Part shown: in pieces, positions 27,096-42,593 of the stretch | Layout of the letters: each line of letters begins with the position of its first letter | Numbering within the stretch: the first letter of the stretch is position 1 | Origin: an uncultured Candidatus Poseidoniales archaeon | GTDB lineage: Archaea > Thermoplasmatota > Poseidoniia > Poseidoniales > Poseidoniaceae | Assembly (NCBI GenBank): GCA_905182635.1 | Contig: CAJJCM010000026.1 | Span: 3,568 to 67,567, forward strand | DNA length: 64,000 nt | Direction: 5' to 3' | Notes under the pieces: generated by a model | Seen by the model: only the letters and a program-made list of their open reading frames with translations | The model's database searches: none | What the model was told of the DNA's origin: nothing | Position numbers and translations under genes: made by a program

Positions 27096-30000
27096 TCACT
27101 GTTCAGGAATATAATTTGGGTCTGGAACCCAGTTATTCGAATCTGCATCCCATATCCATCCCGGATGTTGGGCAACATGTGGTGTAGCAGAAACTTGTTG
27201 CTGAACCACCGCAGGAGTCGTTGGAACCTGTGCCGGAGGAATGCTAACGAGCTCTTTACGGGCTTTTGCCCAAGCATACGGGTCTGCAGTCACCTGTTCT
27301 TCAGCAGCCATCAACTCTGCCTCTTCATCAAGGTCGTCGTATTCGACTTGGAAGAAGAACATTCCAGCACCCAAGAGAATGATCACTCCGACAATAATTG
27401 CCAAAATCCATCCGAAGTTTGAACTCGAGGCCTCTCCATCTCCAACACTGAGTTGAAACATAGCTTCGGAATTTTCACCGGGCAATCTAAAGACTTGGTC
27501 ATCCATTTCGAAAATGATGTTACGCGACCCTTCATTTCCAGCGAGTTGATTACTTGAGATTTCCATACTCCAAGTAGCATCAGCATTGACACGTGTTGAG
27601 TTAAGTCTCAGACCGCTCAAACTATCGTAGCGTGCTTCAATGACGCTGTTTGGTAATCCTTGACCGCTGAAATAGGCTGGCGAACCAGGGCCTAATGGGC
27701 CGTCTCCATCTCGTGTGACGGTGAATGACACTTCAACGACAATTATGTTTACTTTGGCAGAAAATGCTACCGAATCATAGGAATCTCTGGCTTCAAACAT
27801 CAAACCTATAAGCGACCATTCTGAAATATCGTCAGGAAGACCTGTTACAAATGCAGGATTATATTTCACAACTCCATTCGCGTCAAATGTTAGATAATTC
27901 ACGTAATCGTCATCTTCAAAGTTTCCTGGATCGTCATAGACATCGAAGGTGAGTCCATTTGTACTACTACTCACAGGGCCATCAGGGTCAGAAAAGTGAT
28001 CAGTCAAATCGATGCTAATTCCACTATTACAGCGATCTTGTTTTTGTGTATTTGAATCACAGAAAAGAGTAATTGTACTTACCCAATTTGAGTAGTTGAA
28101 CTCCGGGATGAGGTTGTCTGCATCACTCGGATTGTCGATGGTGATTCGGATACTGGATTCCACCGAGTAACTCTTCCCATCCCATGATTTGATGAACAAT
28201 TCATATTGTTGGTCGTGTATAAGATTAGAAGTGTCCCAGGTCGTCTGCCATCCGCCGTTTGGGGCGAAAGTAGTGACTGGGTCCGGGCCGTTATTGATTT
28301 TGGCCCCACTGGCTAAATCATAGATTGTTATTTCAACTCGGGTTACCAAACCATCGTTGTCAAAAGCCCAACCCTCAATCAATTGAGTTTCATTGGCGCG
28401 AAGAATATCGTTGAGTACAGGAGAATTCACTGTGACAAATGGAATTGCGTTTTCAGTGTTCACGCTAATTGTGCGGCTTTCATAGGCACAATCCATCCAA
28501 CTGCTCTTAAGATTACAGAAATCACTGTCAGATGCCCAAATACGGAAAGTATAATCTCCAGTTTGTAATTCTTGGAACATCCAGTCATATGCCCAGGCAG
28601 TTGAACCAGGGATATCAAAATTAGCAGTGTAATCATTTGGCCCGTTAATATCAAACCAAATTGAATTGATGTCACTGCCCCAAGTACCTGAATAGGGGTC
28701 GCTCGCAGTGCCCGTGAATGTCACTTTGGCATTGTCGTGGAAAGTTCCATCATTTGGAGTATTAACCAAAATGCTTGGAGCAACGAGATTGAGTTTGTAC
28801 TTCCGGACTTCCACTGGAGAGTAATCCAATCCGTCATATGAACGAACGCGGAATGTCACATCGCCTTCACCTTCTGGGTGAGCAGACATCTCCCAATCAA
28901 AGTTCCAGGTCTTGAAAGGATGATTCGATTTTGTAATCATGCCGGCAGCACCTGATACATCAATTGCAGAATACCAATCACTTGAACCAGGAGGTTTAAC
29001 TTCAACTCGCTTGATAATACCAAATTGATTTTGATACGCAACGAAGTCAGAATTGCCGTAAGGTCCGGAGATGCCGTCCCATGAAGTACCTGTTAACGTA
29101 ACAGTTGTCGCAAATGAGAATCCATCGTTTTGTGTGACGGTTACGCTCGGTTTGAGGTTATCAAGATTGATCACATCATCAATTGAGCCACTGAGAACAA
29201 AGTCGAATTCCTTTTGCCCTTTACCAAACATGTAAGCTTCTACAAAGTAAAACGGCAATTCGCGGCCATTGGTACAATCGGCATCTTCAGAATCCACTTT
29301 TGTATCGCCGTCATTGTCATAGCCGTCTGCACAAGAATTCTCATCGAGCCAGACAGCAGGAATGGTATTATCATCCTGAACTCGGACATTAAGTTCACCG
29401 ACCAAATGATTCCAATCCCGGTCAAGTAAGAAATCTGAAGGAAGGGATACTTCAGGTGTAAATCCAAAGGCGTCTGTTGTAAGGGTGTAGAGCGGCAAAC
29501 CTGTTGCATCACGAATGATCACTGTTGCATCGACAACGTTGCTGTTCTTTGCTTTGACTTGGTAACGCACCAGTTCACCTTCTCGAACTTGACTTCCCCA
29601 AGCCGAGTTTTGATTTTGCACATGGATTTTAGATGAATCAAAATTCTGTAAATTCGCATATGAGAACACAGTGGAATTCTCTATGACTTCAAGGGCCATT
29701 GGCATAAAAGCCGGAGGCATAAGGGAAGTCGATGGAACCAATAGACATTCTGCGAGGATTAACGGGCATTCTGGACTGAGCCAACTCAGTTGAACTGGAT
29801 ACAATTCATTGCCACCAGCATCCGGAATAAATTCCGATTGAACAATAACTCGTGATTCAGTAATATTGTAGACTTGGGAGGCATTTGTATACGTATTACC
29901 GGAGAAGTACGCAATAGAGCCATACTTGCTGCCAGCGTTATCATCATAATGAGAAATATTTACCGCAAATCCTGTAACTTCGATTGTATTTCTCTGAGCA

Positions 30001-31529
30001 TTGACGATACCACCTTTGATTCGCATTCCATCGCCACCATTGTTGGTCACCGTATTATCATAGAGTGTAGCGGATGACATGAATACATGTATTGCTGGAC
30101 AGGCAAACTCTCCACCATACAATTGGGAATTACAAACACCTGTGTTGTTTGAGATTTGGTTGTTGGCGAAATATAATCGAGCCGCTGTTGGAGTTGGGAT
30201 GCCTTGCCAACTGGAGTCTCCAAAGTGGTATTCTCCAATCAAGACTGCTTCAGCACCAGTGTCTTGGATTGTATTATTTTCTGCACTCACATCCGAAGTA
30301 CCATAAATCCACAATCCATTGTAGCCGGTAATTGGGCCAATCACGTTATTATTTGCAACGACAAAGGAATCACGAATACCGAATCCAGAACCTTTATCAG
30401 CACCAGAAATTGTGTTTCCAGTTGCTTCAACAATTGCACCATCGTAGGCGGTAATTCCTGCACCCTCTACGGTTGTAATGATGTTGTCGCTAAGATAGAG
30501 AGTATGGTTGATTGTCCCAGTGACTTTGTGAGAATTGGTGTCAATCCCGTTGCATTTGACAATGAGGGTCGAGTCGGTTAATGAACCGGAACTTTGTTTC
30601 AAATACACACCTTGTGCATTCTCGTTGATGTCAAGCCGTGAAAAATCAATGTACGAACTTTCTATGTGAATCATACTTCGTCCGTCGTCGCATGATGGTT
30701 CTGTAGTTCCAGTAAAGACTGAATCACGAACCTTCATTGTGGCTAGAATTCCTGCACCTGCACCATAAGCACGGATTGCTGCTGCATCATATCCACTTCC
30801 ATCAATTCCGAGTGTAAATGTGGAATCAGTAATCGTCGGGGATGCTAAATCAAGAGCAAGGATGTTTGAAGTATTGATGTCTTTGAAAGAGAGCCCAGTA
30901 GCGGTTGTTGACGAGCCATCAAACACCAAGACTCCGTATTGCTTACCACTCACTTGGCTGGCGTCAAAAGGAAAACCGTATGCATTTTCAAAGTGAGCAA
31001 ACTTGATCGAAGTGATTGCCTGGTCAATTGTCGACCGAATAATCATCCCCGAACCACAGCCTGTGTCATCGTTCCAATTTGGATTATTACTATTGTTTGA
31101 ATAACATCGTCCAGTGATGGTATAATCAGTAGGTGTCGACCAAACGAATCGTGCTTGGTTACCAGCAGAACCGGAACTTGCGCCACATGAATTATCTGCG
31201 ATACAAATCGCACCTTCGACATCGATATAGGCTCCATATGGAAGGTTGATTGTCGTTCCAGCATTGACAATGAGTTGTGCACCTTCGGCAACGGTAACAT
31301 CACCGTCAAGGTTCATAGTGCCAGTCCAAGTTTCAGTACCGGAGATTATACCCGACTTCGTTTCGTTCACCGCAGATGCGGCTGGTATGGTAATCAATCC
31401 AGTTAAGATGGAAAGCAACAGGAGTGCAACCAACGATATGCTTTTGCGTGATGTTGTGTTCTTCAAAATAGACACCTCTTCATTCCCCCCACTTTCCTCT
31501 CGAATATAAGACTGCGCCTCTATTGCCAC
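27096..31529 (-). CDS. Giant (1477 aa) surface protein with right-handed parallel beta-helix (PbH1/NosD-like) repeats, Ig-like domains, a C-terminal transmembrane anchor and a Trp-containing cytoplasmic tail
   Basis: Signal peptide (LVALLLLSILTGLITIPAASA). Repeated GxxxNNxI/T beta-helix rungs (NTISGADKGSGFGIRDSFVVANNNVIG...). Cys/Asp-rich CADGYDNDGDTKVDSEDADC motif. Transmembrane segment WILAIIVGVIILLGAGMFFF. Tail ends HPGWIWDADSNNWVPDPNYIPEQ. Confidence 0.8.
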   Translation of the reverse strand: MAIEAQSYIREESGGNEEVSILKNTTSRKSISLVALLLLSILTGLITIPAASAVNETKSGIISGTETWTGTMNLDGDVTVAEGAQLIVNAGTTINLPYGAYIDVEGAICIADNSCGASSGSAGNQARFVWSTPTDYTITGRCYSNNSNNPNWNDDTGCGSGMIIRSTIDQAITSIKFAHFENAYGFPFDASQVSGKQYGVLVFDGSSTTATGLSFKDINTSNILALDLASPTITDSTFTLGIDGSGYDAAAIRAYGAGAGILATMKVRDSVFTGTTEPSCDDGRSMIHIESSYIDFSRLDINENAQGVYLKQSSGSLTDSTLIVKCNGIDTNSHKVTGTINHTLYLSDNIITTVEGAGITAYDGAIVEATGNTISGADKGSGFGIRDSFVVANNNVIGPITGYNGLWIYGTSDVSAENNTIQDTGAEAVLIGEYHFGDSSWQGIPTPTAARLYFANNQISNNTGVCNSQLYGGEFACPAIHVFMSSATLYDNTVTNNGGDGMRIKGGIVNAQRNTIEVTGFAVNISHYDDNAGSKYGSIAYFSGNTYTNASQVYNITESRVIVQSEFIPDAGGNELYPVQLSWLSPECPLILAECLLVPSTSLMPPAFMPMALEVIENSTVFSYANLQNFDSSKIHVQNQNSAWGSQVREGELVRYQVKAKNSNVVDATVIIRDATGLPLYTLTTDAFGFTPEVSLPSDFLLDRDWNHLVGELNVRVQDDNTIPAVWLDENSCADGYDNDGDTKVDSEDADCTNGRELPFYFVEAYMFGKGQKEFDFVLSGSIDDVINLDNLKPSVTVTQNDGFSFATTVTLTGTSWDGISGPYGNSDFVAYQNQFGIIKRVEVKPPGSSDWYSAIDVSGAAGMITKSNHPFKTWNFDWEMSAHPEGEGDVTFRVRSYDGLDYSPVEVRKYKLNLVAPSILVNTPNDGTFHDNAKVTFTGTASDPYSGTWGSDINSIWFDINGPNDYTANFDIPGSTAWAYDWMFQELQTGDYTFRIWASDSDFCNLKSSWMDCAYESRTISVNTENAIPFVTVNSPVLNDILRANETQLIEGWAFDNDGLVTRVEITIYDLASGAKINNGPDPVTTFAPNGGWQTTWDTSNLIHDQQYELFIKSWDGKSYSVESSIRITIDNPSDADNLIPEFNYSNWVSTITLFCDSNTQKQDRCNSGISIDLTDHFSDPDGPVSSSTNGLTFDVYDDPGNFEDDDYVNYLTFDANGVVKYNPAFVTGLPDDISEWSLIGLMFEARDSYDSVAFSAKVNIIVVEVSFTVTRDGDGPLGPGSPAYFSGQGLPNSVIEARYDSLSGLRLNSTRVNADATWSMEISSNQLAGNEGSRNIIFEMDDQVFRLPGENSEAMFQLSVGDGEASSSNFGWILAIIVGVIILLGAGMFFFQVEYDDLDEEAELMAAEEQVTADPYAWAKARKELVSIPPAQVPTTPAVVQQQVSATPHVAQHPGWIWDADSNNWVPDPNYIPEQ

Positions 31530-31687: not shown

Positions 31688-32911
31688 TCAACAAGAAGGA
31701 ATCTGAATCGCCAAGTCCTGATACCAATCCAAGGCTTGAAGTTGACCGTATCCCCAATGGTCGTCGTGGGCAACAGAATCATCATACTTGAGCGAGGAGT
31801 TCATCAATGAATATTTTACTTGATCAATGCATTCACCATTCGAGGATGATGTCGGTCTGTACTCTGGAAATGCTTCGAGAAGCAAAGATAATGCGCCAGT
31901 GACGAAGACTGTTGAATCTGAAGTGCCACTGCTCGAATACCAATTGTTACCCATGCCAGTACTGATAATATTCTCACCAGGCGCGATGATTTCAGGCTTC
32001 ATGTGTGGATTCTGTCGAAGAGTTCCATCGGAAAGAATTTGTGAGCCTGCAGAAGAATTCACCCATACTGTTTGTTCTTGAGTTGATGCCCCAACCGTAA
32101 TCACGCGTGGAACATTGCCTGGGACTGAAACTAAACCGTCGTCCGCATCACCACCATCGTTACCCGCAGCAGCGACAACAAATATGCCTGAATCAACCGC
32201 TCGGCGAACAGCAGATACGCTTGAGCCTTCGGTATGCATCTCGATGTTCTGCTCACCACCAAGTGAAAGTGAAATAATATCAGCCTTGAATTCATCTTGA
32301 CACCATGAGATTGCATTTGCCACTGTTTGTTCTGAACCACTGTTCATGTCATCCTCATCAGCAGCTAAAGCAGCAACCATTGCTAGAGTGATATTTGGGG
32401 CGATACCTAATTGATGGCTTCCCGATACAAGAATTCCCGCCATCAGGGTGCCGTGGGCGATAAATCCGTAATCAATCGGTGCATTCGAACTACCAATCAT
32501 ATCTTTGAACGTCACCTCGACTTCAGAAAAGGCAGGATTACTCAAATCCAAACCAGTATCGACCATACATACCTTGACCCCAGCACCCGTAAGACCAAGT
32601 TCGGAAAAATCATTGAATTGAGATTGTTCATTCGCCCATTCAGATTTTGGTGGTGACAGTTCAATAAACAGTAAACCGGAATTCCACACGACGAGTAGGA
32701 TAATGACAAGGACTGCAAAGATTACTCCATTGGTAGCCAGAATCCTCTTTCGTCGTAATTGAGGCATAGGTATGGCATCTAAGGGTGCCCATCCCGTCAC
32801 TTCAGCACGCCAACCATCTTGGAACCCAACTGCGGAAGGGTCAATGGCGGAAAGAATGCGTGAATCTTCGGGTTCAGGGAGATATTCAAAGCTCTCTAAT
32901 CCCTTCATCAT
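31688..32911 (-). CDS. Membrane-anchored subtilisin-like serine protease (peptidase S8)
   Basis: Catalytic Asp VKVCMVDTGLD, His HGTLMAGIL and Ser GTSDSTVFVTGALSLL. N-terminal transmembrane anchor RKRILATNGVIFAVLVIILLVVW. Confidence 0.85.
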   Translation of the reverse strand: MMKGLESFEYLPEPEDSRILSAIDPSAVGFQDGWRAEVTGWAPLDAIPMPQLRRKRILATNGVIFAVLVIILLVVWNSGLLFIELSPPKSEWANEQSQFNDFSELGLTGAGVKVCMVDTGLDLSNPAFSEVEVTFKDMIGSSNAPIDYGFIAHGTLMAGILVSGSHQLGIAPNITLAMVAALAADEDDMNSGSEQTVANAISWCQDEFKADIISLSLGGEQNIEMHTEGSSVSAVRRAVDSGIFVVAAAGNDGGDADDGLVSVPGNVPRVITVGASTQEQTVWVNSSAGSQILSDGTLRQNPHMKPEIIAPGENIISTGMGNNWYSSSGTSDSTVFVTGALSLLLEAFPEYRPTSSSNGECIDQVKYSLMNSSLKYDDSVAHDDHWGYGQLQALDWYQDLAIQIPSC

Positions 32912-32978: not shown

Positions 32979-35900
32979 TCAGAATCGAGATGGCGAAGAC
33001 TTAGCACGAGCAGCACGAACTCCACCGAAAATCACAAGAACACCAAGTATGAAAATCGCCACAGTAAGCCATATCGAATCTTCTGAATCTCCAGAGATGT
33101 AATAGTCGATCGAGAAGTCAATCGTTTGTTCTCCATCTTCAATTCCGATTTGTTGAGTTACTTGTGAACTGTCTTCGCCAACAACCTCGACTCGGATTTC
33201 GAATCGAACTGTACCCTTGGCATCATCAGCAAGCAAATCAAATTCAGCAATTGTCGTTCCATTTGGATTGAGGGTAATCGTCTGTTGACCGAGCGACTTA
33301 CCATCGACGATATTTGCAGATACAATTACATCAGAACTCCCTAAGAAACCAAGGTTTGTGACTGGAATCCGGAGTTTTCCTGCAGTGTCAGCATCGTTAT
33401 CGGAAAGTGTCACAATATCTCCTTGATCGATAAAGAGCACGATACTTGCCTTCGAAATAATAACATCAAAGGATTCGGTCTTGATACCGTTTTCACTGGT
33501 CACTTTAACCGTCACAGTCTTACTACCTGAAACAAAGTCATCAGGTGCATATGCAGTAAATAATTGAGAACGACTGTCGTCCTTTGTAATGTTTATGACT
33601 GAATTCATAGGAGTAACTTCCCAACCGTCCGGAATATTATCAAGGAGTTCAATTGTAAACGAATCATCACCATTTCCAGTATTTTCGAGCATGAATCCAA
33701 ATGTGCTACTACCGCCGGCACCAATTCCAATTTCAGTGGGTTTATCATTGGCTTCAAAGTCATAGATTTGCGGAACTTGAACAGTCAGCGCAATTTCACT
33801 GGAAGGTGTCGAATCGGTAATCAAACGCACCTTAAGCGTATGAGGGTCTTGCAAATGCCAGGCTTCGGATTGGTTGGCTGTAAGGATACGAACTCGGAGC
33901 ATTGTTGAAGATTCAACAGTGGTATCATTCGAGTTGTTTCCAATTCCGAGTGAAATCTCATGTGAATCGACAAATGCAGTGCCATTCCAGAATTCAATAC
34001 CCCAGTCCGCCTCGTCTGGTGAAATACCTACTTGTCCAAGAACATCAAACACTTGCACTGTTTCAGTTCCATTGTAGGTAATATTCAAATCAAATACAAT
34101 CACTTTGTAACCTTCATTTTCTTCGATTGCTAAGAATGCAAGTTCAGAACCCTCAACTGTGGTTGCGTTCACCATGCTATCTTCAACCATTGTAATCGTG
34201 GTGTCGGAATTGATAGTACGTGTGTATGAAAGGACAACCGGAGAACGACCTTCTGCAACTTGAGTCACAGCACCGGCGATGTATTTCATCTCGAGATTCA
34301 AATCATGTTGAAGGGTGGTGAAAGAAGAATCCATCTCAATTTCTTCAGCAGGCATGAGAATACTGATGCTGCCATCGGTCCCTACCGCCATATCCCATTC
34401 GATATCAGAACCGATAGCGAAAGTGACCAATGCTGTTTCATTGAGCATTGCAGAGCCATTACCTGAAGAACCAGCATGGTGTTCATCCAGTCCGATGTCT
34501 GTCCACGTTGTTGTCAAATCAATCCATCCGCCAAGAGACATCTCAAGGTCGAGGGTTGCTCCGTCGGAAATACTTGCATCGAGTAAGCCGACTGCAACAC
34601 CGCCACCATTTGTTCCAGCGTTCGCTTCTGTAACGACAACAATCCACTTACCGGGTGCAATAACTGCAGACCAAGTGAGTTGGTCATTCGCAAATTCAGG
34701 AGTGATTGTTTGTGATTCTCCTGCCATTCCTGTTGATGGGTAAAGAACAACAGATGAACCGTTCAATCGGCTCGCATCAATAATATCAGTTACATTACCA
34801 GAAACGCTAACATTTCCTGCTGTCATTTCAATATCGTAAGATTCGGGTTGTGAGTAAACAGGATAAGCGCTCAAATTCGAGACATTGTAGACTTCAGTAC
34901 TGAAACCTTCCTTGCTTACTGAAACTTGATATTCATCTTGAATTGGAACAAAGAGAGTCCAAACTCCGAATTCATCGGTTGTTACGTTGGTATCAATTTC
35001 GGTATTATTCATGCCAATAATGGACACCGTAGTGTTTGCAACACCCTCAGTTCCGTCAGGGATATTATCGTCATCAAGGTCCCAGAAGACCTTTCCACCG
35101 ATTTCAACTTCAAGTACAGCTGTGATGTTTTCAAGGACGATGATACCATCAACTGCCGATGCAGTCGAGAATGGTGACGAAGAGGTGTCAAGACTCCAGT
35201 GATGTTGAGGAGATGTTTCGTTGAGGAACAAACTCCAGTTCCCTGGCATCAATTGCTCACTGATGTTTCCATTTCCATCAGATTTGGAAAGCGTAATATT
35301 ACCAAATCCATCATGACTGACAAGGGTCACACGTATTCCAGACATGTTCGAGTCTGTGTTGAATTCTTGAAGTTGGAACTTCAATTCAATCACATCAAAG
35401 GAAGTTAAATTCAAGCCTGTTCGAACAGAAGAATTATTGCCGACAGTGAACGGGTAACGGAGTGTTTCAGTGCTTTCGTTATCGGCTAAGAATGGTGCAA
35501 AAATTGCGACCCAATCTCCTGCAGGAACATAGGAGGCGAAACTGCCGTTGACATCTGATGCCATATTAAACCACAAATCTTCGGCCTCATTTCTGAGCAA
35601 GAATTGCTTTTCAACAGCGCCGCCACTTAAGTTTGTGAATTCACCAGTGACCAAGTAGTCGTTACGTAGGGGGAACGCCAATGCTTCTTCATACACATCA
35701 AGTCCAACCATGATTGGGTCAAACGTACTTACTCCAGCGAGCATATAGTCCGATGCATTCTCATCTGCTGCCTCTGTTACGTTGAACAGGAGGCTGTAAA
35801 GTCCAGGCTCAAGAACGACGGTGATGTTACCAGCAGAGGAATAGTCAGCCGCAGTGTAATTGTGCTGTAGACCATGGTCATTGAGAGGCATGAGGGTGAA

Positions 35901-38900
35901 GGAAGGACTCATTGCAGTTCCATTTGCAAAGACCCCATCATCGCCAGCATCCATGAAGAGATTCAACTCAATGGTGAGATAATCTGGGTGAACAAACAAT
36001 TCAAGTGGATTCGGCTGTGCGTCCTCCTCATCGATAATGTTGTAATTCGTGATATTCGTAGAGTTCAATGCGTCATCATCAACAGCGAAGTCCCATTCAC
36101 CTGCTTGCAAGTTAAATGAGAACTCTCCAGCGTCAGAAATAGTAGTTCTCCATTCAAGACCATCGGCATTGGTAGCAACAACAGTTTGTACATTGTAACC
36201 CGGAACGAGTCCATCCCAAAGTGAAGAATTGTCGTAAAGGAACACAAATCCATTTGCATTCACCGTCGGCTCAAGATACATAAGACCAAGATCAAGTTCT
36301 GTATCACCGCTAAGTTCAACCAATTGACCTCCAGACATTTGTGAAGCAATGCTAAACAGCGTCATGTGGAAATCATTACCACTCGGTAGACGAATGCTGT
36401 AGTTTCCATCTGTTGCAACTGTGGTTGCGAAGGATAAGTCATTCGCAACAAAGTCAATCTCAAGGCCAGCAGCAGGCTGGCTTTGGTCGAACTTCAGATC
36501 GGCATCTTGTGCGTTCCAAAGAGAATAGGTAAAGTCGGAGTTCAAGAGTCCCCCATCGACGACACGGATACTACCATTGACCCATGTTCCGATTGCATAA
36601 GCACTCGTGGTTGAGATATCTTCTGTTTCAAGTTCGATGTGGTCAAACAAAATGTAATCATCTCCAGTTTCGTCAGAAATCGTATATGACCCCATTGGCA
36701 ACTCAATGTAAACAAGTCCATTCTCGTCTGAAGTTGAGTTGAGCGGTCCAAACAACGGGTCGCTGTTAGTGAAGATTACAACACGTCCAGCAATGTCAGT
36801 GTATGCTTCTTGCGTGAGTGGGTCCACTGGAGAAGTGAGTTGTAAAGAGATATCATGCATCTCAGGAACGCTCATCAGCAACGAAAAGTTTTCACTGGCA
36901 TCTCGAACTAAGATCGTTTCATTCAACTCATACCAGCCATCGCTGTCAACGTCCACTCGGTAATAGTACTCACCTGCTGCAAGAGGCCCGTAGGAAAAGT
37001 TACCATTTTCATCAGTGAGGATTTCCATCACTTTATCAAGACCCAAATCGACATCAACCAACTCAATCGTTTCGTTCGGGAAAGGTTGGTTAAAGAAATC
37101 ATCGAGTGTGTCTTCAAAGATTGAACCCGGCATAGTCATTGCCAAATTATACGAAGGTGAGATTTCAACATTCACTGGGTCCGGTAAAAGAACTTCCTTA
37201 CCGTTATCCAACTGAGCAATCATATTGTAAACACCTGGAATTAATCCTGTGATGTAGAATGAACCTGCCTGAACCATTGGTCCAGAGAAATCACCAGGAC
37301 CGACAAACAGTCCTGTACCATTGAGTGTTCCTGTTCCTTCGAAGGAACCTGTAGCTTCAAACGAGTCACCGACGTGTTCAGTGACCAATGTAGATACTCC
37401 GTCAGAAGTAAGACGGGCGTTCGCTTCTACTTCTCCATCGAGAAGGTAGACCATTGGGGAGGCCGAAGAATCTTGAATACAGAGTGTTTCATTCTCAGGC
37501 ATTGGGGCCGTTTCATTATCGAGACAAGAGTCGACACTTTGGTTCGAAACCCATGAGGCAACAAGTGTTCCCTTACCGCTCCAAGTTCCGTTACTCGTGT
37601 AGACTCGGTTATCCGAAATCAAACGTGTAAACGTTCCAGTAAAGTCATCTGCAAAAGCAACACCTTCACTTTCAAAGGTTCCATTTTCAGTGAAGGTAAC
37701 TTCACCAGTTCCTTGAAGGATACGGCTGTCGACTGACGAGAACGAACCATTGGTTGTTGTCAAGGTATAGTTATCAGTCATCGACCAAATATTACGCAAA
37801 ATGAAATCAGTACTGACCAGAGCATCACCATCAAAGGAATCGTGACCAGTCCATGTTACTTGACCCGAAACACCACTGCTTTCAACAGCAATATCGAATG
37901 GGGTTACGGCAGAAGCATCGTCTTTACGGTCTGCTTGGTCTGCGGTAACGTTCAGTTGAGATTCACCAAGCCAACTCATGTTTGCAACTTCACCAAGAAT
38001 AGCGGTGATGTCGTTGGTTTGACGGTCATCATTTGTCTCCGTTAGAATGTCTGTGAAACCGAGTTGTGAGAAACCACTTGAACGAATGTTATCTTGGGCA
38101 GTAATTGGGTTGTAGTCACCCGCATATGCACTGACGCGGATTCGACCGGCAGGAGCTTCAAATGACCAATCGCCATTTTCGTCAGCATCGGTGAAACCGA
38201 TTGGAACCCAATAGGTATCAGGATCAAGATCTTCGACACCTTCACCAGAGAAGGCGTCACGTTCAATCAGCAATCGAACACCAGGTAGGCCTTGGCCGTT
38301 GTCACTCATGGTAACTTGACCGGAAATCTCTGCACCGGAGTAATACTTGAGAATCTTGACAAGCGTATTTACTGTTGCCATACCTGTAGATTGCTGTCCA
38401 ATCGTCACTGAGCTGTTGGCTTCAGGTGAATACCAATTTGAGATGACAAAGTGATTTTGCATAGCACCAGGCAGTGGAGGGGCTTGGGTTAGAATACTGC
38501 CAGGGCTACCGGATTGACCAAAGTGTTGCGCTGGTTGAGGATTCGACGAACCTGAATCGAGACCAAGTGTTGAGGCGCCATATCCAATATAGGTTCGTGC
38601 AAGCATTGTATCAAAGAAGGCTGAGTTGTGATCGACTCGGACATCTTCAACTTGTAATGGGTCAATATCTGCACCCGATTGTTGGTTGAGGAAATCTTCG
38701 GTAATCGCTTGGTCAACTTCGGCACGGGTCATTTCATCAGGGAAATCGCCTCGCATAGTTTCGTACACTTCATTCATGTAAGTAGAAATATCCTGTCCAC
38801 TCAAAATAGTAGGTGCTCCGAAAATACCCATCGGTTGTCCTTGATTGTAATTCATGTCTTGAGTATAACGGCCAGCACGAGGGTACAATCTGTTGTCAAT

Positions 38901-41900
38901 TGCCAAGTATCGAATTTCATGGTCACGCTCAATGAGATCACCTGGGGCGCCGTTGTAATCTTGAACGGAATAATATCCTTCAAGGTTAATCAAGTCGTCA
39001 TACATGTCAATAATTTGCCCGTCATCAAGACTGAGTGTTAATAATTGAACGGTCAAAGAGAGACGGGTATTCGCACGATGGATGTTGGTCGCGACTGAAT
39101 CATATTCTACAATAAGGTCTGCAGTGTACCAGTATTCTCCAACTATGTAATGGGTAGTCTCATAGACATTGTCAGCACCTGTGCGGATGTTGTTTGTGAA
39201 AGTACGGTTCGCTTCGGACTGTTCAGACCAGTCTCCATCGACACATGTTGCCGACTGGGCCTCGGTACAGAGCATACGTTCTCCACCTTCGTAAATCCGC
39301 CAGTATTGAGTCGATGCGTCAAACACGCCATCGGTTTGATGGTGGCCGACTGCCAGCACGACATCGTCATTCGTTTGGAACGCTTCGAAACTGTTCAATT
39401 TAGCCAAAGTAATCATTTCGTCATGGTTATAATTGGTAGAAATGGTAGAAAAGAGGTCCATTTGGTCATCGGTGAGGTACGAATCAACGATGTTGCTGTA
39501 ACCTGAAGTGAAAGCGGTGTTATCAGTTCGAGCCTGATTGTATCCGATGTCGCCTTGGCCAAGTTGCCAGATGAACATCGAAACGAGGTCTTCTTGGCTG
39601 CGCGCCAGCAACATGTTACCGGTCGCAGGAATACCAGATTGGAAGTTATCGGAAACGGATGGGTGTTCACCCGTATCAAGTGCTTGGAATCCGTAGTCCC
39701 ACCAAGAAACGAAAGCTGGGCGCTGTGAATATGTCTCATCGGCATCTTGGGCAGCAAGCCATTGATATGCCTTGTTCCAACCTTGGTCATTGAATCCAGA
39801 ACCGAACGAGCCGAGATACCAGTTTCCATCATAACCGCTGTCGTCAAGAAGCGAAAATCCACCGACTTCCCAGCGGAATGCATCAGGGATAATGTTGTAA
39901 ATCACTTCATCAAGATCATCTTCAGCATTGTTGCTGCCAGGGATAGCAGCGTCAAGACCGTAGGTAAATTGCTGTCCCATGAGCATGACCATCACAAGCA
40001 TGATTGCAGAGAATGATGGTGTGCGCCATACTGCAATTCGAGCACCACGAATACGATCTTCAGGAGAACGGATTCCCAGTTTCTTCCAAGTCTTCACAAG
40101 GCCGTCCCAGTTTGCCCACTTCCATAGAGATACGATACCCCATGCGCCGAGAACGGCGATTGCAGGTGTGGCATTGAACATGAAACGAGCCGCTGTCCAA
40201 GCCATGAAAGAGGCTGCAAGAATCCAAACGCCGAACACGAGTTTTGTTTGTTTACGTTCACGAACAGCAGACCAAAGACAGAGGACGCCCATAATCAATG
40301 AGAGCACAAAGGTAATCGGTCCGAACTGAGCAAAGAGTTGGCCACGGTCTGGAGCGTTTGCTTCAGCAACTGTTCCGAAAATCTTAGTTTTGGTGAAATA
40401 GCCACTACCGGTAAACAAAACGTCCCATGCATTCGAGATGTTCGCTTGCTTGAGGAGCCACAATGCCAAGAAGAAAACAGCACCAGCACTGGCAAGAACG
40501 CCCAAGATAAGCAACCAAGGCTTGTCTCGGAATCCGGTTGTTACAAAGCTAATTGCCAAAGTAAACGCGAAGATGAACAAGAACGGTTGCAGACCTGTGC
40601 CATTGAGGATAAGGTTAATTTGAGGATGTCCGTAGAACGGAATTGCCATCAAGAAATTGACTGAAAGCATGGTCATGAATAAGACATTGAGTGTGGTTGA
40701 GTCACGGCGGCGGAACATGTTGAGAGCAACTTGTCCTGCATATGCAAGGAAGAGAATCGATGGTCCAACAACGAAACCTTTCCAACCAAGAGAAACAATA
40801 CCGAAACTGACACCTGCCAAAACTGCGGCGGCGAAAGCGGCTTTCCGTTGATTGATAACCGCTGAAATTGAAGCAACGAAAGCCATCGGTGTCGCTGAAG
40901 AAGTACGAATCAATCGCTCTGTTCCAGCATACTTAACCGCTCGCAACCAAAACATAAACCCGAGCGTGATGAACAGCATGATGAAAGCATCGTGGTCTGC
41001 AAGAGCCCATGTTGTGTGGCTCACGTGTGCAGGCATAAAGGCGAGAAGCCATGCTGCGATTACTGCTGCTTTTACACCGACGTGTTCGCGTGCAATAATA
41101 GCAACTGGCAAAATGGTAAGAGCGCCGTAGATAGCAGGGAGGGAAAGGATTGCCCACCAAACTGCATCGCCATTCGCAAAGAACGGTTCAAGCAACATTG
41201 CAACGACTGCAATCGACCATGTGAAAATCGGAGGTCGAGGGTTGATTCCACCGACGGGGTAGAAACGGTCAGCATCAACAATCATGTGAGCATTATTGGC
41301 AAGAATATAGTCAACAACTCGCTTCATGTACCATGGGTCAGAACCACCGGTCATGTCCCAGTTCCCAGTTCCGTATGCATTCATTGATGGCACAACATAC
41401 CATTGTGTGCGAATGACCAGACCAAAGAAGAAAGCAAGTCCAATCATGACGCCTGCCCAATGCTGATTCCAGAATAAACGAGCACCTGAATATTCATGCT
41501 CTTCACGGTTCACCCATCCGCCCCATGAATCATGGGTGGAAATTGAATAAATGGCCACGCCGATAAAGAAGGTGATTCCGAGCCAGATCAAACTGCCCCA
41601 GTTTCCGTTCAACATGTCCACAGAGAACATGCCTGAATCATACCATGATGAAACCAAATACAAAGTCCACATTGATCCGAGAGTCATTGCACGGGTATGC
41701 CAGCGCTCGGAGAACATCCCTGCGACAATCAGTGCAACCATACCGGTGAAGAAGGCTGGCCAGTAGCCAAAGTAGCCATGGTAGCCCTCAACGGTATTGA
41801 TTCCGAGTTGGTCGGCAACCGAGACACTGTCGAAATGCCAGAGACTTGCAATGTGAGCAAAAGACCAGACGGCAAGAGCAATTTGCAAGGGTAAGTTTTT

Positions 41901-42593
41901 CTTGTTGATGATTGAAGAACTCTCATTGTTCATGAAACTAAACCAACCGGTTTCGCTTACGGGTGTCAAAACTCCTCGTGCCATTGTAGCGACAAGAACA
42001 CCAAGAAGTGTGAAGAGTGTCACATAGGAAAAGAATTGGTATCCAACAGCCTGATATTTCAAATTCAATGTCCTGACCTCTTCAATCAACGGCAATCCAG
42101 TATTCGGATTTATCTCATCCGGACCTGCCATGTTGTAATACTCTGGGAGAAGCGCAAGAGCGTCTCCAGCAGCAACGATTCCAACGTTGATTCCAACCGC
42201 CATGAAGATGATGATGGTTGCAAGTTCGTGTCGCCCACGGCTGGTCATGAAATGAACGCCGAAGGTGACCAATGCGAACAGGAGGCCGGATAATGCTCCA
42301 TAACCCTGCATGTAGATGATTTCCGCACCAATAAGAGCAGAGGCCAGCATTAAGAGGGAAAGAGTGGCCTTTGAAAGTGAAACGGATTCAGATTGTTTGA
42401 GCATCGATGGGAGAAGTCCCAAGATACTTGCGACGACGATAAAAATCATCGGCGTCATGTTGTCTACATCGAGCTCGAAGGTGACTCCAGCGAGCTTGAT
42501 GGCTGCGATAGCGAGCAGGACTGCAAGGGGGGCAATAAGCCATCCAAGCGGTGCTGCTGGCGCAGTGCGGTTTGTGCCAGTTTTTTGTTCCAT
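32979..42593 (-). CDS. aglB: Giant (3204 aa) oligosaccharyltransferase AglB (STT3 family). It carries an extra N-terminal polytopic membrane domain and a roughly 2100-aa extracellular C-terminal extension ending in a transmembrane anchor.
   Basis: WWDYG catalytic motif encoded around 39702-39716. EL1-type motifs SDPWYMKR and VDADRFYPVGG, close to eukaryotic/archaeal STT3 DPYFNYR and DDRAWYPLGR. At least 13 transmembrane helices in the core. About 380 residues with roughly 10 additional transmembrane helices precede the STT3 core. Long Ig-like / carboxypeptidase-regulatory-like repeat region after the core. Final hydrophobic helix SIWLTVAIFILGVLVIFGG. Confidence 0.85.
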   Translation of the reverse strand: MEQKTGTNRTAPAAPLGWLIAPLAVLLAIAAIKLAGVTFELDVDNMTPMIFIVVASILGLLPSMLKQSESVSLSKATLSLLMLASALIGAEIIYMQGYGALSGLLFALVTFGVHFMTSRGRHELATIIIFMAVGINVGIVAAGDALALLPEYYNMAGPDEINPNTGLPLIEEVRTLNLKYQAVGYQFFSYVTLFTLLGVLVATMARGVLTPVSETGWFSFMNNESSSIINKKNLPLQIALAVWSFAHIASLWHFDSVSVADQLGINTVEGYHGYFGYWPAFFTGMVALIVAGMFSERWHTRAMTLGSMWTLYLVSSWYDSGMFSVDMLNGNWGSLIWLGITFFIGVAIYSISTHDSWGGWVNREEHEYSGARLFWNQHWAGVMIGLAFFFGLVIRTQWYVVPSMNAYGTGNWDMTGGSDPWYMKRVVDYILANNAHMIVDADRFYPVGGINPRPPIFTWSIAVVAMLLEPFFANGDAVWWAILSLPAIYGALTILPVAIIAREHVGVKAAVIAAWLLAFMPAHVSHTTWALADHDAFIMLFITLGFMFWLRAVKYAGTERLIRTSSATPMAFVASISAVINQRKAAFAAAVLAGVSFGIVSLGWKGFVVGPSILFLAYAGQVALNMFRRRDSTTLNVLFMTMLSVNFLMAIPFYGHPQINLILNGTGLQPFLFIFAFTLAISFVTTGFRDKPWLLILGVLASAGAVFFLALWLLKQANISNAWDVLFTGSGYFTKTKIFGTVAEANAPDRGQLFAQFGPITFVLSLIMGVLCLWSAVRERKQTKLVFGVWILAASFMAWTAARFMFNATPAIAVLGAWGIVSLWKWANWDGLVKTWKKLGIRSPEDRIRGARIAVWRTPSFSAIMLVMVMLMGQQFTYGLDAAIPGSNNAEDDLDEVIYNIIPDAFRWEVGGFSLLDDSGYDGNWYLGSFGSGFNDQGWNKAYQWLAAQDADETYSQRPAFVSWWDYGFQALDTGEHPSVSDNFQSGIPATGNMLLARSQEDLVSMFIWQLGQGDIGYNQARTDNTAFTSGYSNIVDSYLTDDQMDLFSTISTNYNHDEMITLAKLNSFEAFQTNDDVVLAVGHHQTDGVFDASTQYWRIYEGGERMLCTEAQSATCVDGDWSEQSEANRTFTNNIRTGADNVYETTHYIVGEYWYTADLIVEYDSVATNIHRANTRLSLTVQLLTLSLDDGQIIDMYDDLINLEGYYSVQDYNGAPGDLIERDHEIRYLAIDNRLYPRAGRYTQDMNYNQGQPMGIFGAPTILSGQDISTYMNEVYETMRGDFPDEMTRAEVDQAITEDFLNQQSGADIDPLQVEDVRVDHNSAFFDTMLARTYIGYGASTLGLDSGSSNPQPAQHFGQSGSPGSILTQAPPLPGAMQNHFVISNWYSPEANSSVTIGQQSTGMATVNTLVKILKYYSGAEISGQVTMSDNGQGLPGVRLLIERDAFSGEGVEDLDPDTYWVPIGFTDADENGDWSFEAPAGRIRVSAYAGDYNPITAQDNIRSSGFSQLGFTDILTETNDDRQTNDITAILGEVANMSWLGESQLNVTADQADRKDDASAVTPFDIAVESSGVSGQVTWTGHDSFDGDALVSTDFILRNIWSMTDNYTLTTTNGSFSSVDSRILQGTGEVTFTENGTFESEGVAFADDFTGTFTRLISDNRVYTSNGTWSGKGTLVASWVSNQSVDSCLDNETAPMPENETLCIQDSSASPMVYLLDGEVEANARLTSDGVSTLVTEHVGDSFEATGSFEGTGTLNGTGLFVGPGDFSGPMVQAGSFYITGLIPGVYNMIAQLDNGKEVLLPDPVNVEISPSYNLAMTMPGSIFEDTLDDFFNQPFPNETIELVDVDLGLDKVMEILTDENGNFSYGPLAAGEYYYRVDVDSDGWYELNETILVRDASENFSLLMSVPEMHDISLQLTSPVDPLTQEAYTDIAGRVVIFTNSDPLFGPLNSTSDENGLVYIELPMGSYTISDETGDDYILFDHIELETEDISTTSAYAIGTWVNGSIRVVDGGLLNSDFTYSLWNAQDADLKFDQSQPAAGLEIDFVANDLSFATTVATDGNYSIRLPSGNDFHMTLFSIASQMSGGQLVELSGDTELDLGLMYLEPTVNANGFVFLYDNSSLWDGLVPGYNVQTVVATNADGLEWRTTISDAGEFSFNLQAGEWDFAVDDDALNSTNITNYNIIDEEDAQPNPLELFVHPDYLTIELNLFMDAGDDGVFANGTAMSPSFTLMPLNDHGLQHNYTAADYSSAGNITVVLEPGLYSLLFNVTEAADENASDYMLAGVSTFDPIMVGLDVYEEALAFPLRNDYLVTGEFTNLSGGAVEKQFLLRNEAEDLWFNMASDVNGSFASYVPAGDWVAIFAPFLADNESTETLRYPFTVGNNSSVRTGLNLTSFDVIELKFQLQEFNTDSNMSGIRVTLVSHDGFGNITLSKSDGNGNISEQLMPGNWSLFLNETSPQHHWSLDTSSSPFSTASAVDGIIVLENITAVLEVEIGGKVFWDLDDDNIPDGTEGVANTTVSIIGMNNTEIDTNVTTDEFGVWTLFVPIQDEYQVSVSKEGFSTEVYNVSNLSAYPVYSQPESYDIEMTAGNVSVSGNVTDIIDASRLNGSSVVLYPSTGMAGESQTITPEFANDQLTWSAVIAPGKWIVVVTEANAGTNGGGVAVGLLDASISDGATLDLEMSLGGWIDLTTTWTDIGLDEHHAGSSGNGSAMLNETALVTFAIGSDIEWDMAVGTDGSISILMPAEEIEMDSSFTTLQHDLNLEMKYIAGAVTQVAEGRSPVVLSYTRTINSDTTITMVEDSMVNATTVEGSELAFLAIEENEGYKVIVFDLNITYNGTETVQVFDVLGQVGISPDEADWGIEFWNGTAFVDSHEISLGIGNNSNDTTVESSTMLRVRILTANQSEAWHLQDPHTLKVRLITDSTPSSEIALTVQVPQIYDFEANDKPTEIGIGAGGSSTFGFMLENTGNGDDSFTIELLDNIPDGWEVTPMNSVINITKDDSRSQLFTAYAPDDFVSGSKTVTVKVTSENGIKTESFDVIISKASIVLFIDQGDIVTLSDNDADTAGKLRIPVTNLGFLGSSDVIVSANIVDGKSLGQQTITLNPNGTTIAEFDLLADDAKGTVRFEIRVEVVGEDSSQVTQQIGIEDGEQTIDFSIDYYISGDSEDSIWLTVAIFILGVLVIFGGVRAARAKSSPSRF

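What the first reader, a model, noticed from the sequence alone, without database searches (positions are those of the whole stretch)
32979..42593. AglB/STT3 oligosaccharyltransferase embedded in a 3204-aa protein with a giant extracellular C-terminal extension and a second membrane anchor
The catalytic core is unmistakable: WWDYG, SDPWYMKR and VDADRFYPVGG loop motifs plus 13 transmembrane helices. Characterised AglB/STT3 proteins are about 600-1000 aa. Here the core is followed by roughly 2100 residues of repeated beta-rich (Ig-like / CarboxypepD_reg-like) domains and a terminal hydrophobic helix. The catalytic subunit would then carry its own very large surface module tethered at both ends. 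That could be a substrate-recruiting scaffold, an S-layer-like structural role for the OST itself, or a moonlighting adhesin.
Basis: partly seen in the sequence, partly recalled or inferred. Interest (0 to 1): 0.8.

Follow-up and report, generated by a model that had tools for sequence, protein, structure and literature searches.

The report
Giant doubly anchored archaeal oligosaccharyltransferase
This gene encodes the N-glycosylation enzyme (AglB/STT3) of a Marine Group II archaeon as one conserved 3,204-residue chain that also carries an extra membrane module and a ~1,800-residue stalk of Ig-like domains, rich in glycosylation sites, that re-enters the membrane; the architecture is real and I found no description of it, but what the added parts do is unknown.

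Summary

The long form is not an assembly artefact:
- More than 120 protein clusters, and 78 of 80 species-representative Ca. Poseidoniales (Marine Group II) loci, keep the same uninterrupted ORF.
- dN/dS is 0.04-0.20 along the whole length.

- An extra MGII-specific membrane module of 8-10 helices precedes the 13-helix core.
- The catalytic soluble domain runs to about aa 1410, so the true extension is about 1,760 aa. It holds about 11 transthyretin-like (CarboxypepD_reg) beta-sandwiches, a 245-aa MGII-specific insert, CARDB-like terminal domains and a C-terminal helix.

The extension carries 56 N-x-S/T sequons against about 20 expected, the highest enrichment in the window.

Giant AglBs of 2,000-2,800 aa with the same colinear layout, but without the N-terminal module, are widespread in other Thermoplasmatota. 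They are only auto-annotated, and I found no paper describing them.

The function of the extension is inferred, not shown. It is most likely a heavily glycosylated, doubly anchored envelope strut or spacer built into the enzyme.

The parts
32979..42593 (-). Whole ORF: 3,204-aa giant AglB/STT3 (stop codon included)
   Evidence: An identical protein, P0001, is present in public metagenomes under the JGI name 'asparagine N-glycosylation enzyme membrane subunit Stt3'.
41499..42593 (-). N-terminal membrane module, aa 1-365, 8-10 TM helices, specific to MGII
   Evidence: Hydropathy. AF2 helices with pLDDT 70-88. A 10-helix topology fits the positive-inside rule. No Pfam, NCBIfam or PDB match. hhalign finds no similarity to the STT3 core. 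Present in every 3,146-3,228-aa representative and absent from the 2,000-2,800-aa Thermoplasmatota forms. No paralogue in the window or in the flanks of fetched loci.
39981..41498 (-). STT3/AglB 13-TM GT-C catalytic membrane domain, aa 366-871
41319..41348 (-). EL1 motif GGSDPWYMKR; D419 aligns with the catalytic D47 of AfAglB-L
   Evidence: Residue-level alignment. Invariant in the 41-sequence alignment. Coordinates checked.
40989..40997 (-). Second acidic motif D533-H-D535, aligning with D161-H-H163 of AfAglB-L
40362..40373 (-). TVAE, aa 741-744: TIXE-type motif in external loop 5
   Evidence: T741, A743 and E744 are invariant. AfAglB has TIAE in the same loop, but the HMMER alignment is about 8 columns off register there, so the assignment is by eye.
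38364..39980 (-). External catalytic soluble domain, aa 872-1410, including WWDYG
   Evidence: The WWDYG region matches the C-terminal domains of AfAglB-S (3VU0, 3VGP). aa 1200-1400 show 0.77-0.80 identity across the family and align to P0137 residues 748-960. AF2 confidence is low because I cut the domain at aa 1200.
39690..39704 (-). WWDYG motif, aa 964-968
38109..38363 (-). First transthyretin-like (CarboxypepD_reg-type) beta-sandwich, aa 1411-1495
   Evidence: AF2 strands at pLDDT about 75-82. Carries the signature ...DENGDWSFEAPAGRIRV. Homologous to 'FMLKYYDGA...' in P0137.
37374..38108 (-). MGII-specific conserved insert, aa 1496-1740: G-T-F-rich, long beta strands, invariant C1690 and C1705
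   Evidence: Identity 0.63-0.69. All-beta in AF2. No Pfam hit. Not aligned in P0137. Matches only itself in tblastn.
34494..37373 (-). Array of about 10 tandem CarboxypepD_reg/NOMO-like beta-sandwiches, aa 1741-2700
   Evidence: Pfam hits at about aa 1835-1881, 2038-2073, 2137-2186 and 2516-2571. The signature D-x-x-G-x-[FW]...[PA]-G-x-[WY] recurs every 87-99 aa. AF2 pLDDT 75-93 up to aa 2400. Foldseek hits to BaTIE, Gram-positive pilins, adhesin extender repeats, A2M MG domains and the H. volcanii S-layer protein. Highest sequon density of the protein.
33084..34493 (-). Distal beta domains, aa 2701-3170 (CARDB / choice-of-anchor-T / cadherin-like); not modelled
   Evidence: NCBIfam choice_anch_T at aa 2930-3043, E 1.4e-8, below the cut-off. 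CARDB or NPCBM_assoc hits in other family members. A TNTGNGDD motif is present. Aligns to P0137 residues 2151-2435.
32982..33083 (-). C-terminal TM helix (aa 3174-3192) plus basic cytoplasmic tail ending in RF
   Evidence: Mean hydropathy 2.67. Conserved ...YGG..R....RF in MGII. Thermoplasmatota homologues also end in a TM helix and a basic tail.
31688..32911 (-). Membrane-anchored S8 subtilase, 67 bp downstream on the same strand (conserved neighbour; a functional link is not shown)
   Evidence: Pfam Peptidase_S8. TM helix at about aa 57-80. Found downstream of the giant gene in 65 of 80 MGII loci.
27096..31529 (-). 1,477-aa beta-helix/Big_7 surface protein with N- and C-terminal hydrophobic segments (conserved neighbour)
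   Evidence: Present in 62 of 80 loci.

Best explanation
SHOWN. This is the AglB (STT3-family, GT-C fold) oligosaccharyltransferase of a Marine Group II (Ca. Poseidoniales) archaeon, made as one 3,204-aa polypeptide under purifying selection along its whole length. Its parts, in order:
1. An MGII-specific membrane module of 8-10 helices.
2. The canonical 13-helix catalytic domain, with all acidic and metal-binding motifs intact.
3. The external WWDYG domain.
4. An acidic external chain of about 1,760 aa holding about 17-19 beta-sandwich domains, mostly transthyretin/CarboxypepD_reg-like, with a 2.9-fold excess of N-x-S/T sequons.
5. A final TM helix with a basic tail.

INFERRED.
- The core transfers lipid-linked glycan to Asn of exported proteins, as other AglBs do.
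- The extension lies outside the cell, tethered to the membrane at both ends, and is itself the enzyme's most densely glycosylated substrate.
- It acts as a built-in structural element of the envelope: a glycoprotein arch or strut with a contour of roughly 80 nm, taking about 4.75 nm per domain from BaTIE.
- This strut would contribute to the glycocalyx, or set the spacing of the space outside the membrane around the glycosylation site. It would be the in-cis counterpart of lumenal beta-sandwich, single-TM partners such as NOMO or the non-catalytic OST subunits of eukaryotes.

The layout (core, beta-sandwich array, TM helix) is ancestral in Thermoplasmatota. MGII added the N-terminal module and a 245-aa insert.
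For: - Identity and activity. Catalytic residues are invariant.
- Reality of the long form: >120 clusters at 99-100% query coverage; 283 species genomes; the best 80 are nearly all labelled Poseidoniales/MGII or generic Euryarchaeota/Methanobacteriota, with one labelled Verrucomicrobiales; 78 of 80 uninterrupted; omega 0.04-0.20 in every segment.
- Beta-sandwich rod. The top Foldseek hit, BaTIE 6FWV, is also the protein that PMC8327139 names as the closest structural relative of the NOMO rod.
- External and glycosylated: 13+1 TM topology; acidic composition; 56 sequons against 19.5 +/- 3.8 expected (z 9.5); enriched in all 21 homologues, with 8 sites conserved in 21 of 21; the highest z of any ORF in the window.
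- Ancestral layout.
- aglB transcripts are reported in a field MGII MAG (PMC9723583 supplement).
Against: - Nothing here shows the protein stays in one piece, where it sits, that it is glycosylated, or how abundant it is.
- A structural coat protein would need far higher copy number than an enzyme usually has.
- The last 800 aa and the junction aa 872-1420 were not modelled as units. No contact between the C-terminal helix and the membrane domains was tested.
- The DK/MI motif could not be assigned.
- Whether MGII genomes hold a second, short AglB was not tested.
Confidence: 0.55

Rival explanations
1. Precursor (polyprotein) model. The ORF is translated as one chain. The extension is then cut off outside the cell, for example by the conserved neighbouring membrane-anchored S8 subtilase. 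The result would be a normal-sized AglB plus a separate, C-terminally anchored, heavily glycosylated surface (S-layer-like) protein. The fusion would guarantee that the coat protein is glycosylated in cis before release.
For: - An S8 subtilase lies 67 bp downstream on the same strand in 65 of 80 MGII loci. An S8 gene is also two genes away in the Methanomassiliicoccales-labelled genome CP070739.1.
- A variable, gap-rich stretch of about 20 aa (aa 1389-1408) separates the conserved catalytic domain from the first beta-sandwich.
- The extension resembles S-layer or pilin-type tandem Ig proteins and is sequon-rich.
Against: - No cleavage motif or experimental evidence exists.
- The fusion has been kept across phylum-level divergence, including a locus with no S8 gene within 10 kb.
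- Subtilases are common MGII exoproteases for protein degradation, so the synteny may be incidental.
Confidence: 0.15
2. Substrate-handling scaffold. The beta-sandwich array binds or shields nascent exported polypeptides, or the lipid-linked glycan, next to the catalytic site. It would act as the ribophorin, OST48 or malectin-like lumenal parts of the eukaryotic OST do, and would widen or time the choice of substrates.
For: - The extension is fused in cis and its far end returns to the membrane, so it would cage the space above the active site.
- Conservation is strongest next to the catalytic domain, at aa 1411-1900.
- Eukaryotic OST accessory subunits are lumenal beta-sandwich domains with a single TM helix (own knowledge of structures 6EZN and 6S7O, which appear as hits).
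Against: - No similarity to ribophorin, OST48, malectin or thioredoxin-like OST3/6 families was detected.
- About 18 domains is far more than a local chaperone platform needs.
- Extreme sequon enrichment fits a glycan-displaying product better than a binding surface.
Confidence: 0.15
3. Adhesin. The extension is a surface adhesin for particles, algae or other cells that happens to be fused to AglB.
For: - Foldseek matches include bacterial adhesin extender repeats, pilins and SdrD.
- MGII literature emphasises adhesion traits (PMC6461757).
Against: - The chain is tethered at both ends and shows no recognisable distal ligand-binding head.
- It is under uniform strong purifying selection with no hypervariable tip.
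- The same layout occurs in MAGs labelled Thermoplasmata, Methanomassiliicoccales, Ca. Thermoplasmatota and Euryarchaeota RBG_13_57_23, not only in planktonic MGII.
Confidence: 0.07
4. Artefact. Two or more genes (an STT3 and a downstream surface protein) were joined by a mis-assembly or a missed stop or frameshift.
For: Two of the 80 related loci (L060, L065) show frameshifts inside the gene.
Against: - 78 of 80 independent species-level assemblies, including single-cell genomes, keep one frame.
- More than 120 clusters show 99-100% query coverage.
- Omega is well below 1 across the supposed junction.
- Thermoplasmatota homologues are colinear.
Confidence: 0.01

Closest known systems
Characterised single-subunit archaeal AglB (A. 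fulgidus AglB-L, PDB 3WAJ/7E9S; P. furiosus and H. volcanii AglB)
   Same: - GT-C fold with 13 TM helices.
- D47-equivalent D419, the second acidic motif, a TIXE-like TVAE, and WWDYG followed by NFQxG.
- An external C-terminal domain.
   Different: - Characterised AglBs are about 600-1,050 aa (own knowledge). They have at most one or two peripheral beta domains and end outside the cell.
- This protein adds 365 aa of extra TM helices in front.
- It adds about 1,760 aa (about 18 beta domains) plus a second membrane anchor behind.
Uncharacterised 2,000-2,800-aa STT3-CarboxypepD_reg proteins of other Thermoplasmatota (MAGs labelled Thermoplasmata, Methanomassiliicoccales, Marine Group III, Ca. Poseidoniia); e.g. 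P0137 = MFA5772382.1, P0272 = MCL4356568.1
   Same: - Colinear layout: STT3 core, soluble domain, CarboxypepD_reg array, CARDB-like domains, TM helix and basic tail.
- 28-37% identity in the core.
   Different: - They lack the N-terminal membrane module; their core starts at about aa 20-150.
- They lack the 245-aa insert.
- They lack the conserved YGG...RF C-terminus.
- They carry only automatic names such as 'carboxypeptidase regulatory-like domain-containing protein' or 'GT39 family protein'.
Eukaryotic NOMO (BOS complex subunit)
   Same: - A string of transthyretin/CarboxypepD_reg-type Ig-like domains ending in a single TM helix and a short tail.
- Pfam NOMO1-like models hit 8 of 9 family members.
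- Same best structural relative, BaTIE 6FWV (PMC8327139).
- NOMO acts as a rod that sets membrane spacing.
   Different: - NOMO is a separate protein, about 12 domains and about 27 nm long, not fused to an enzyme, and anchored at one end only.
- Sequence similarity here is weak and below the gathering scores. Homology is not established.
Non-catalytic subunits of the eukaryotic OST (ribophorin I/Ost1, OST48/Wbp1, ribophorin II/Swp1)
   Same: Lumenal beta-sandwich domains anchored by C-terminal TM helices that accompany STT3. This is a functional analogy from own knowledge of structures 6EZN, 6C26 and 6S7O.
   Different: - They are separate polypeptides.
- No sequence or profile similarity was detected here.
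- Docking of the C-terminal helix onto the core was not tested.
Archaeal S-layer glycoproteins (e.g. H. volcanii csg, PDB 7PTP)
   Same: Tandem Ig-like domains, acidic composition, heavy N-glycosylation and a C-terminal membrane anchor. 7PTP is among the Foldseek hits.
   Different: - S-layer proteins are separate, highly abundant and lattice-forming. Their anchor is often a lipid added by archaeosortase.
- No PGF-CTERM or other sorting signal was detected here.

Membership tests
STT3/AglB/PglB oligosaccharyltransferase (GT66, GT-C fold) | N-terminal membrane domain of 13 TM helices with the GT-C fold | tested here: met
   - Hydropathy gives 13 segments between aa 382 and 871.
- Pfam STT3 is above the gathering score.
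- Foldseek E 1e-7 to AglB and STT3.
STT3/AglB/PglB oligosaccharyltransferase (GT66, GT-C fold) | Catalytic acidic residue in external loop 1 (D47 of AfAglB-L; D56 of PglB) | tested here: met
   GGSDPWY aligns with GGNDPWY, placing D419 on D47. Invariant in 41 sequences.
STT3/AglB/PglB oligosaccharyltransferase (GT66, GT-C fold) | Second metal-binding motif (DxD / DxH / DxE; D161 and H163 of AfAglB-L) | tested here: met
   ADHDAF aligns with NDHHIW, placing D533 and D535 on D161 and H163. Invariant.
STT3/AglB/PglB oligosaccharyltransferase (GT66, GT-C fold) | TIXE/SVSE motif in external loop 5 | tested here: inconclusive
   TVAE (aa 741-744) is invariant and lies in the right loop. The HMMER alignment to AfAglB TIAE is about 8 columns out of register, and the loop has low pLDDT.
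STT3/AglB/PglB oligosaccharyltransferase (GT66, GT-C fold) | WWDYG motif in the external C-terminal domain | tested here: met
   aa 964-968 align with WWDYG 550-554 of AfAglB-L and with the AfAglB-S domains 3VU0 and 3VGP.
STT3/AglB/PglB oligosaccharyltransferase (GT66, GT-C fold) | DK or MI motif forming the +2 Ser/Thr pocket | tested here: inconclusive
   An invariant WQLxxGD1015xxY sits on the helix after WWDYG. No D-x-x-K or M-x-x-I could be assigned, and this region of the model is low confidence.
STT3/AglB/PglB oligosaccharyltransferase (GT66, GT-C fold) | Transfers lipid-linked oligosaccharide to Asn in N-x-S/T | not testable with these tools
   Needs an enzyme assay or genetics. Sequon enrichment in the extension is indirect support only.
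TIGR04154 archaeo_STT3 (archaeosortase A system-associated OST subfamily) | Score at or above the curated cut-off of 450 bits | tested here: not met
   157.3 bits over aa 383-1001. The protein is related to this subfamily but is not a member of it. No PGF-CTERM-type signal was detected.
CarboxypepD_reg / transthyretin-like beta-sandwich repeats (PF13620) | Pfam match above the gathering score; 7-strand beta-sandwich | tested here: met
   - 65 bits against a 32.3 cut-off.
- Matched in 9 of 9 family members.
- Further copies score below the cut-off but are supported by the recurring signature and by AF2 beta-sandwiches.
NOMO-type rod (BOS complex subunit) | Orthology to NOMO; association with NCLN and TMEM147 | tested here: not met
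   Only sub-threshold hits to NOMO1-like domain models (22.8 bits against a cut-off of 27). This is a resemblance in domain type and layout only.

The most novel reading that the evidence does not exclude
The giant AglB is a single-chain 'holo-OST'. Its beta-sandwich chain and returning TM helix would play the part of the separate non-catalytic subunits or NOMO-like spacers of eukaryotes. In Marine Group II, and more widely in Thermoplasmatota that lack an S-layer, the glycosylation enzyme would itself be a major glycosylated building block of the cell envelope. Envelope assembly and N-glycosylation would then be physically one machine.
Probability: 0.15. Interest if true: 0.85.

Novelty: new variant of a known kind. 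Interest (0 to 1): 0.6.

Why it matters
Marine Group II archaea are among the most abundant archaea in the surface ocean. They remain uncultured, and their cell envelope is essentially unknown.

Their only detected AglB-type enzyme is three times the size of any characterised oligosaccharyltransferase. It is conserved order-wide and carries its own membrane-to-membrane glycoprotein stalk. That gives a concrete candidate for an envelope component, and a natural experiment in how an OST can acquire accessory modules in cis.

The trait extends across Thermoplasmatota as 2,000-2,800-aa forms. Current pictures of archaeal N-glycosylation rest on AglBs of 600-1,050 aa, so they miss a large, common class. 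The MGII-specific membrane module has no detectable relative and is a further unknown.

Tried and rejected
1. Frameshift or assembly join near 39.3 kb: rejected.
2. N-terminal module as a duplicated half of STT3: rejected; hhalign probability about 0.1% (reported as 0.05-0.1).
3. N-terminal module as a separate upstream gene in non-MGII giants: not seen in L081-L083.
4. Near-identical tandem repeats: rejected. An HMM of the best repeat finds only one other weak copy. The repeats are ancient and divergent.
5. Pfam, NCBIfam and PDB searches gave nothing for the N-terminal module, for aa 1001-1660, or for most of aa 2580-3170.
6. My split of the structure prediction at aa 1200 cut the catalytic soluble domain in two. 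Both halves (aa 873-996 and 1201-1420) came out at pLDDT below 50, so the domain boundary rests on conservation and colinearity, not on a model.
8. Literature: no paper in the searchable library combines STT3/AglB with MGII/Poseidoniales, or describes giant Thermoplasmatota AglBs. This is absence in an incomplete library, not proof.
9. The apparent 'short' relatives (700-1,000 aa) in the representative search are mostly contig-end fragments whose cluster mates are 2,040-2,176 aa long.
Full report
**1. Observation**

The window holds one uninterrupted ORF on the minus strand, 32979-42593, ATG start, 3,204 aa. I re-translated their coordinates. Pfam STT3 hits aa 416-678 above its gathering score, and CarboxypepD_reg hits aa 2516-2571. 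NCBIfam archaeo_STT3 covers aa 383-1001 with E 5.5e-46 but stays below that subfamily's cut-off.

**2. Is the long form real?**

- An identical protein (P0001) exists in public metagenomes. More than 120 clusters (at 90% identity) of 3,125-3,227 aa align at 49-88% identity over 99-100% of the query.
- A scan of one genome per species found 283 genomes with a relative. The best 80 are nearly all labelled Ca. Poseidoniales, Poseidoniaceae or Poseidonia (Marine Group II) or generic Euryarchaeota/Methanobacteriota, and include single-cell genomes; one (L080) is labelled Verrucomicrobiales. Identity goes down to 41%.
- In 78 of these 80 loci the matched region is one open frame. L060 and L065 carry frameshifts.
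- Pairwise dN/dS against three relatives (L029, L004, L009) is 0.11-0.20 for the N-terminal module, 0.04-0.06 for the TM core, 0.04-0.08 for the soluble domain and 0.05-0.16 for the extension.

The gene is therefore a conserved single ORF, and the suspected join near 39.3 kb does not exist.

**3. The core is an AglB**

- A family profile hits only A. fulgidus AglB-L (3WAJ, 5GMY), the AfAglB-S C-terminal domains (3VU0, 3VGP) and yeast STT3 (6C26) in the PDB.
- The residue-level alignment puts D419 on catalytic D47, D533-H-D535 on D161-H-H163, and WWDYG on residues 550-554. A conserved NFQxG follows. These residues are invariant in a 41-sequence alignment.
- TVAE (aa 741-744) looks like the TIXE motif of external loop 5, but the alignment is out of register there. 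A DK or MI motif could not be assigned.

**4.

The STT3 core starts only at about aa 366-380. Ahead of it lie 8 strongly hydrophobic segments, or 10 helices in the AF2 model at pLDDT 70-88.

A 10-helix topology fits the positive-inside rule, with RGR 119-121 and ERWHTR 296-301 on the inside. It also delivers STT3 TM1 in the correct orientation. The protein would then have about 24 TM helices.

This module has no Pfam, NCBIfam or PDB relative and is not a duplicate of the core. It matches nothing else in the window or in the fetched loci. It is present in every representative of 3,146-3,228 aa and absent from all more distant giants.

**5. Anatomy of the C-terminal part**

- Conservation stays at 0.77-0.80 identity through aa 1200-1400 (0.76 for aa 1401-1500). 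aa 1214-1422 align colinearly to other giant AglBs. The catalytic soluble domain therefore extends to about aa 1410.
- My cut at aa 1200 left both halves of that domain at low confidence.
- From about aa 1420 to 2400 the AF2 model is all-beta with pLDDT 75-93.
- The CarboxypepD_reg signature D-x-x-G-x-[FW]-x(n)-[PA]-G-x-[WY] occurs at about aa 1481 and then every 87-99 aa from 1786 to 2647. Sub-threshold Pfam hits fall at the same places. This gives about 11 transthyretin-like domains.
- Between the first of these domains and the array lies a conserved 245-aa G-T-F-rich beta module with two invariant cysteines. P0137, the one non-MGII homologue that aligns beyond the core, lacks it.
- The last 470 aa before the anchor give weak choice-of-anchor-T, CARDB, NPCBM_assoc and cadherin-like signals.
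- Foldseek matches for aa 1201-2400 are tandem Ig-type surface proteins: BaTIE, Gram-positive pilins, adhesin extender repeats, alpha-2-macroglobulin MG domains and the H. volcanii S-layer protein.
- The chain ends in a TM helix (aa 3174-3192) and a basic tail, with a conserved YGG...RF in MGII.

**6. Sequons**

The extension carries 56 N-x-S/T sequons against 19.5 +/- 3.8 expected from composition (z 9.5). All 21 homologues examined are enriched (z 4-10). Eight sites are conserved in 21 of 21 sequences and many in at least 14 of 21.

The catalytic soluble domain has only 2 sequons. No other ORF in the window comes close: other large putative surface proteins score z -1.2 to 3.4. With D+E at 13-20% and K+R at 2-3% and the 13+1 TM topology, this argues that the extension is external and is a prime N-glycosylation substrate.

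**7. Wider distribution**

An exhaustive HMMER search with the core (aa 380-1100) found 669 relatives.

- Hits at 44-66% identity are the MGII class.
- The next tier, at 28-37% identity, is dominated by proteins of 2,000-2,775 aa whose core starts at aa 20-150.
- Apparent short hits are mostly fragments whose cluster mates are 2,040-2,176 aa long.
- Source names are Thermoplasmata, Methanomassiliicoccales, Ca. Thermoplasmatota, Marine Group III, Ca. Poseidoniia and Methanomethylophilaceae. Product names are automatic.
- These proteins also end in a TM helix and a basic tail. P0137 aligns colinearly with the MGII family HMM from the core through the beta-sandwich array to the C-terminus.

The STT3, beta-sandwich array and TM layout is therefore old within Thermoplasmatota. 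MGII added the N-terminal module and the insert.

**8. Context**

The gene order purD, giant AglB, membrane-anchored S8 subtilase, 1,477-aa beta-helix/Big_7 protein, HTH-AAA-TPR regulator, pilin-like DUF7289 is conserved in 56-70 of the 80 loci. That includes the most divergent ones.

**9. Mechanism**

Shown: an intact, conserved AglB catalytic core joined in one chain to an external, sequon-dense rod of beta-sandwiches and a second anchor.

Inferred: the enzyme glycosylates exported proteins and its own extension. The extension would be a structural, glycan-bearing arch or spacer of the envelope. Its contour would be about 80 nm if each domain spans about 4.75 nm, as in BaTIE (19 nm for four domains, per PMC8327139).

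The closest analogy is NOMO, a rod of the same domain type with a C-terminal TM helix that sets ER membrane spacing. A second analogy is the single-TM lumenal subunits of the eukaryotic OST (own knowledge).

Rivals are cleavage into enzyme plus coat protein (possibly by the neighbouring subtilase), a substrate-handling scaffold, and an adhesin. None is excluded, and the data here cannot rank the first two decisively.

**10. Novelty**

The sequences are public and auto-annotated. I found no paper that links STT3 or AglB with MGII, or that describes giant Thermoplasmatota AglBs. One metatranscriptome study lists aglB among transcripts enriched when an MGIIb genus is active, without comment on its size.

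I class this as a new variant of a known kind: a bona fide AglB with two unprecedented fused modules. Interest is moderate to high. The anatomy is solid and surprising for a specialist, but the function of the added parts is still open.

Noticed in passing
window 53859-58775 (+): 1,638-aa protein with six Lamin Tail Domains (PF00932, E 2.7e-71) and two PLD-like domains (PF13091). This is an unusual, probably extracellular, nuclease- or phospholipase-type architecture. It is also sequon-enriched (33 against 19 expected, z 3.4).
   Followed up: no
window 8420-13870 (-) and 13893-19646 (-): Two adjacent giant ORFs of 1,816 and 1,917 aa. Neither has a Pfam family, apart from one TSP3 repeat in the second. 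They have no tblastn match in the 10-kb flanks of the 80 MGII loci, though those flanks would not reach this far.
   Followed up: no
window 31688-32911 (-): Type-II membrane-anchored S8 subtilase, 67 bp downstream of the giant AglB on the same strand. It occupies that position in 65 of 80 MGII loci. An S8 gene also sits near the giant AglB of the Methanomassiliicoccales-labelled genome CP070739.1. It could process the extension; this is untested.
   Followed up: partly
window 27096-31529 (-): 1,477-aa right-handed beta-helix plus Big_7 protein with an N-terminal signal/TM segment, a C-terminal TM helix and a cytoplasmic tail of about 70 aa. It is syntenic with the AglB in 62 of 80 loci and, unlike the AglB extension, is not sequon-enriched (z -1.2).
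   Followed up: partly
window 24511-27036 (-): 841-aa HTH (Crp-like) + AAA_16/STAND + TPR protein, conserved downstream of the cluster in 58 of 80 loci. It may be a regulator of the surface-protein cluster.
   Followed up: no
window 20744-24036 (+): Two archaeal type IV pilin-like DUF7289 proteins (361 and 736 aa), convergent with the AglB cluster. The larger one is conserved in 56 of 80 loci.
   Followed up: no
L060 (about 746-1800) and L065 (after codon about 2001 of the gene): Frameshifts inside the giant AglB gene in two MAG assemblies (FRAM_WSC20_S10_BML_bin_60_1 and FRAM18_bin100). These are either assembly errors or local pseudogenes.
   Followed up: no
L081 1-9762 (locus of P0137, Thermoplasmata MAG): The 2,449-aa giant AglB there is preceded by an ORF of at least 8,356 aa and by a 1,077-aa Ig/PKD-like protein. 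A 76-aa ORF overlaps the AglB start. This is another cluster of giant surface proteins next to a giant AglB.
   Followed up: no
window 4026-5057 (-) and 44175-44840 (+): A GT2 glycosyltransferase and CDP-archaeol synthase (CarS) lie in the same 64-kb window. No other recognisable agl pathway genes are adjacent to aglB.
   Followed up: no
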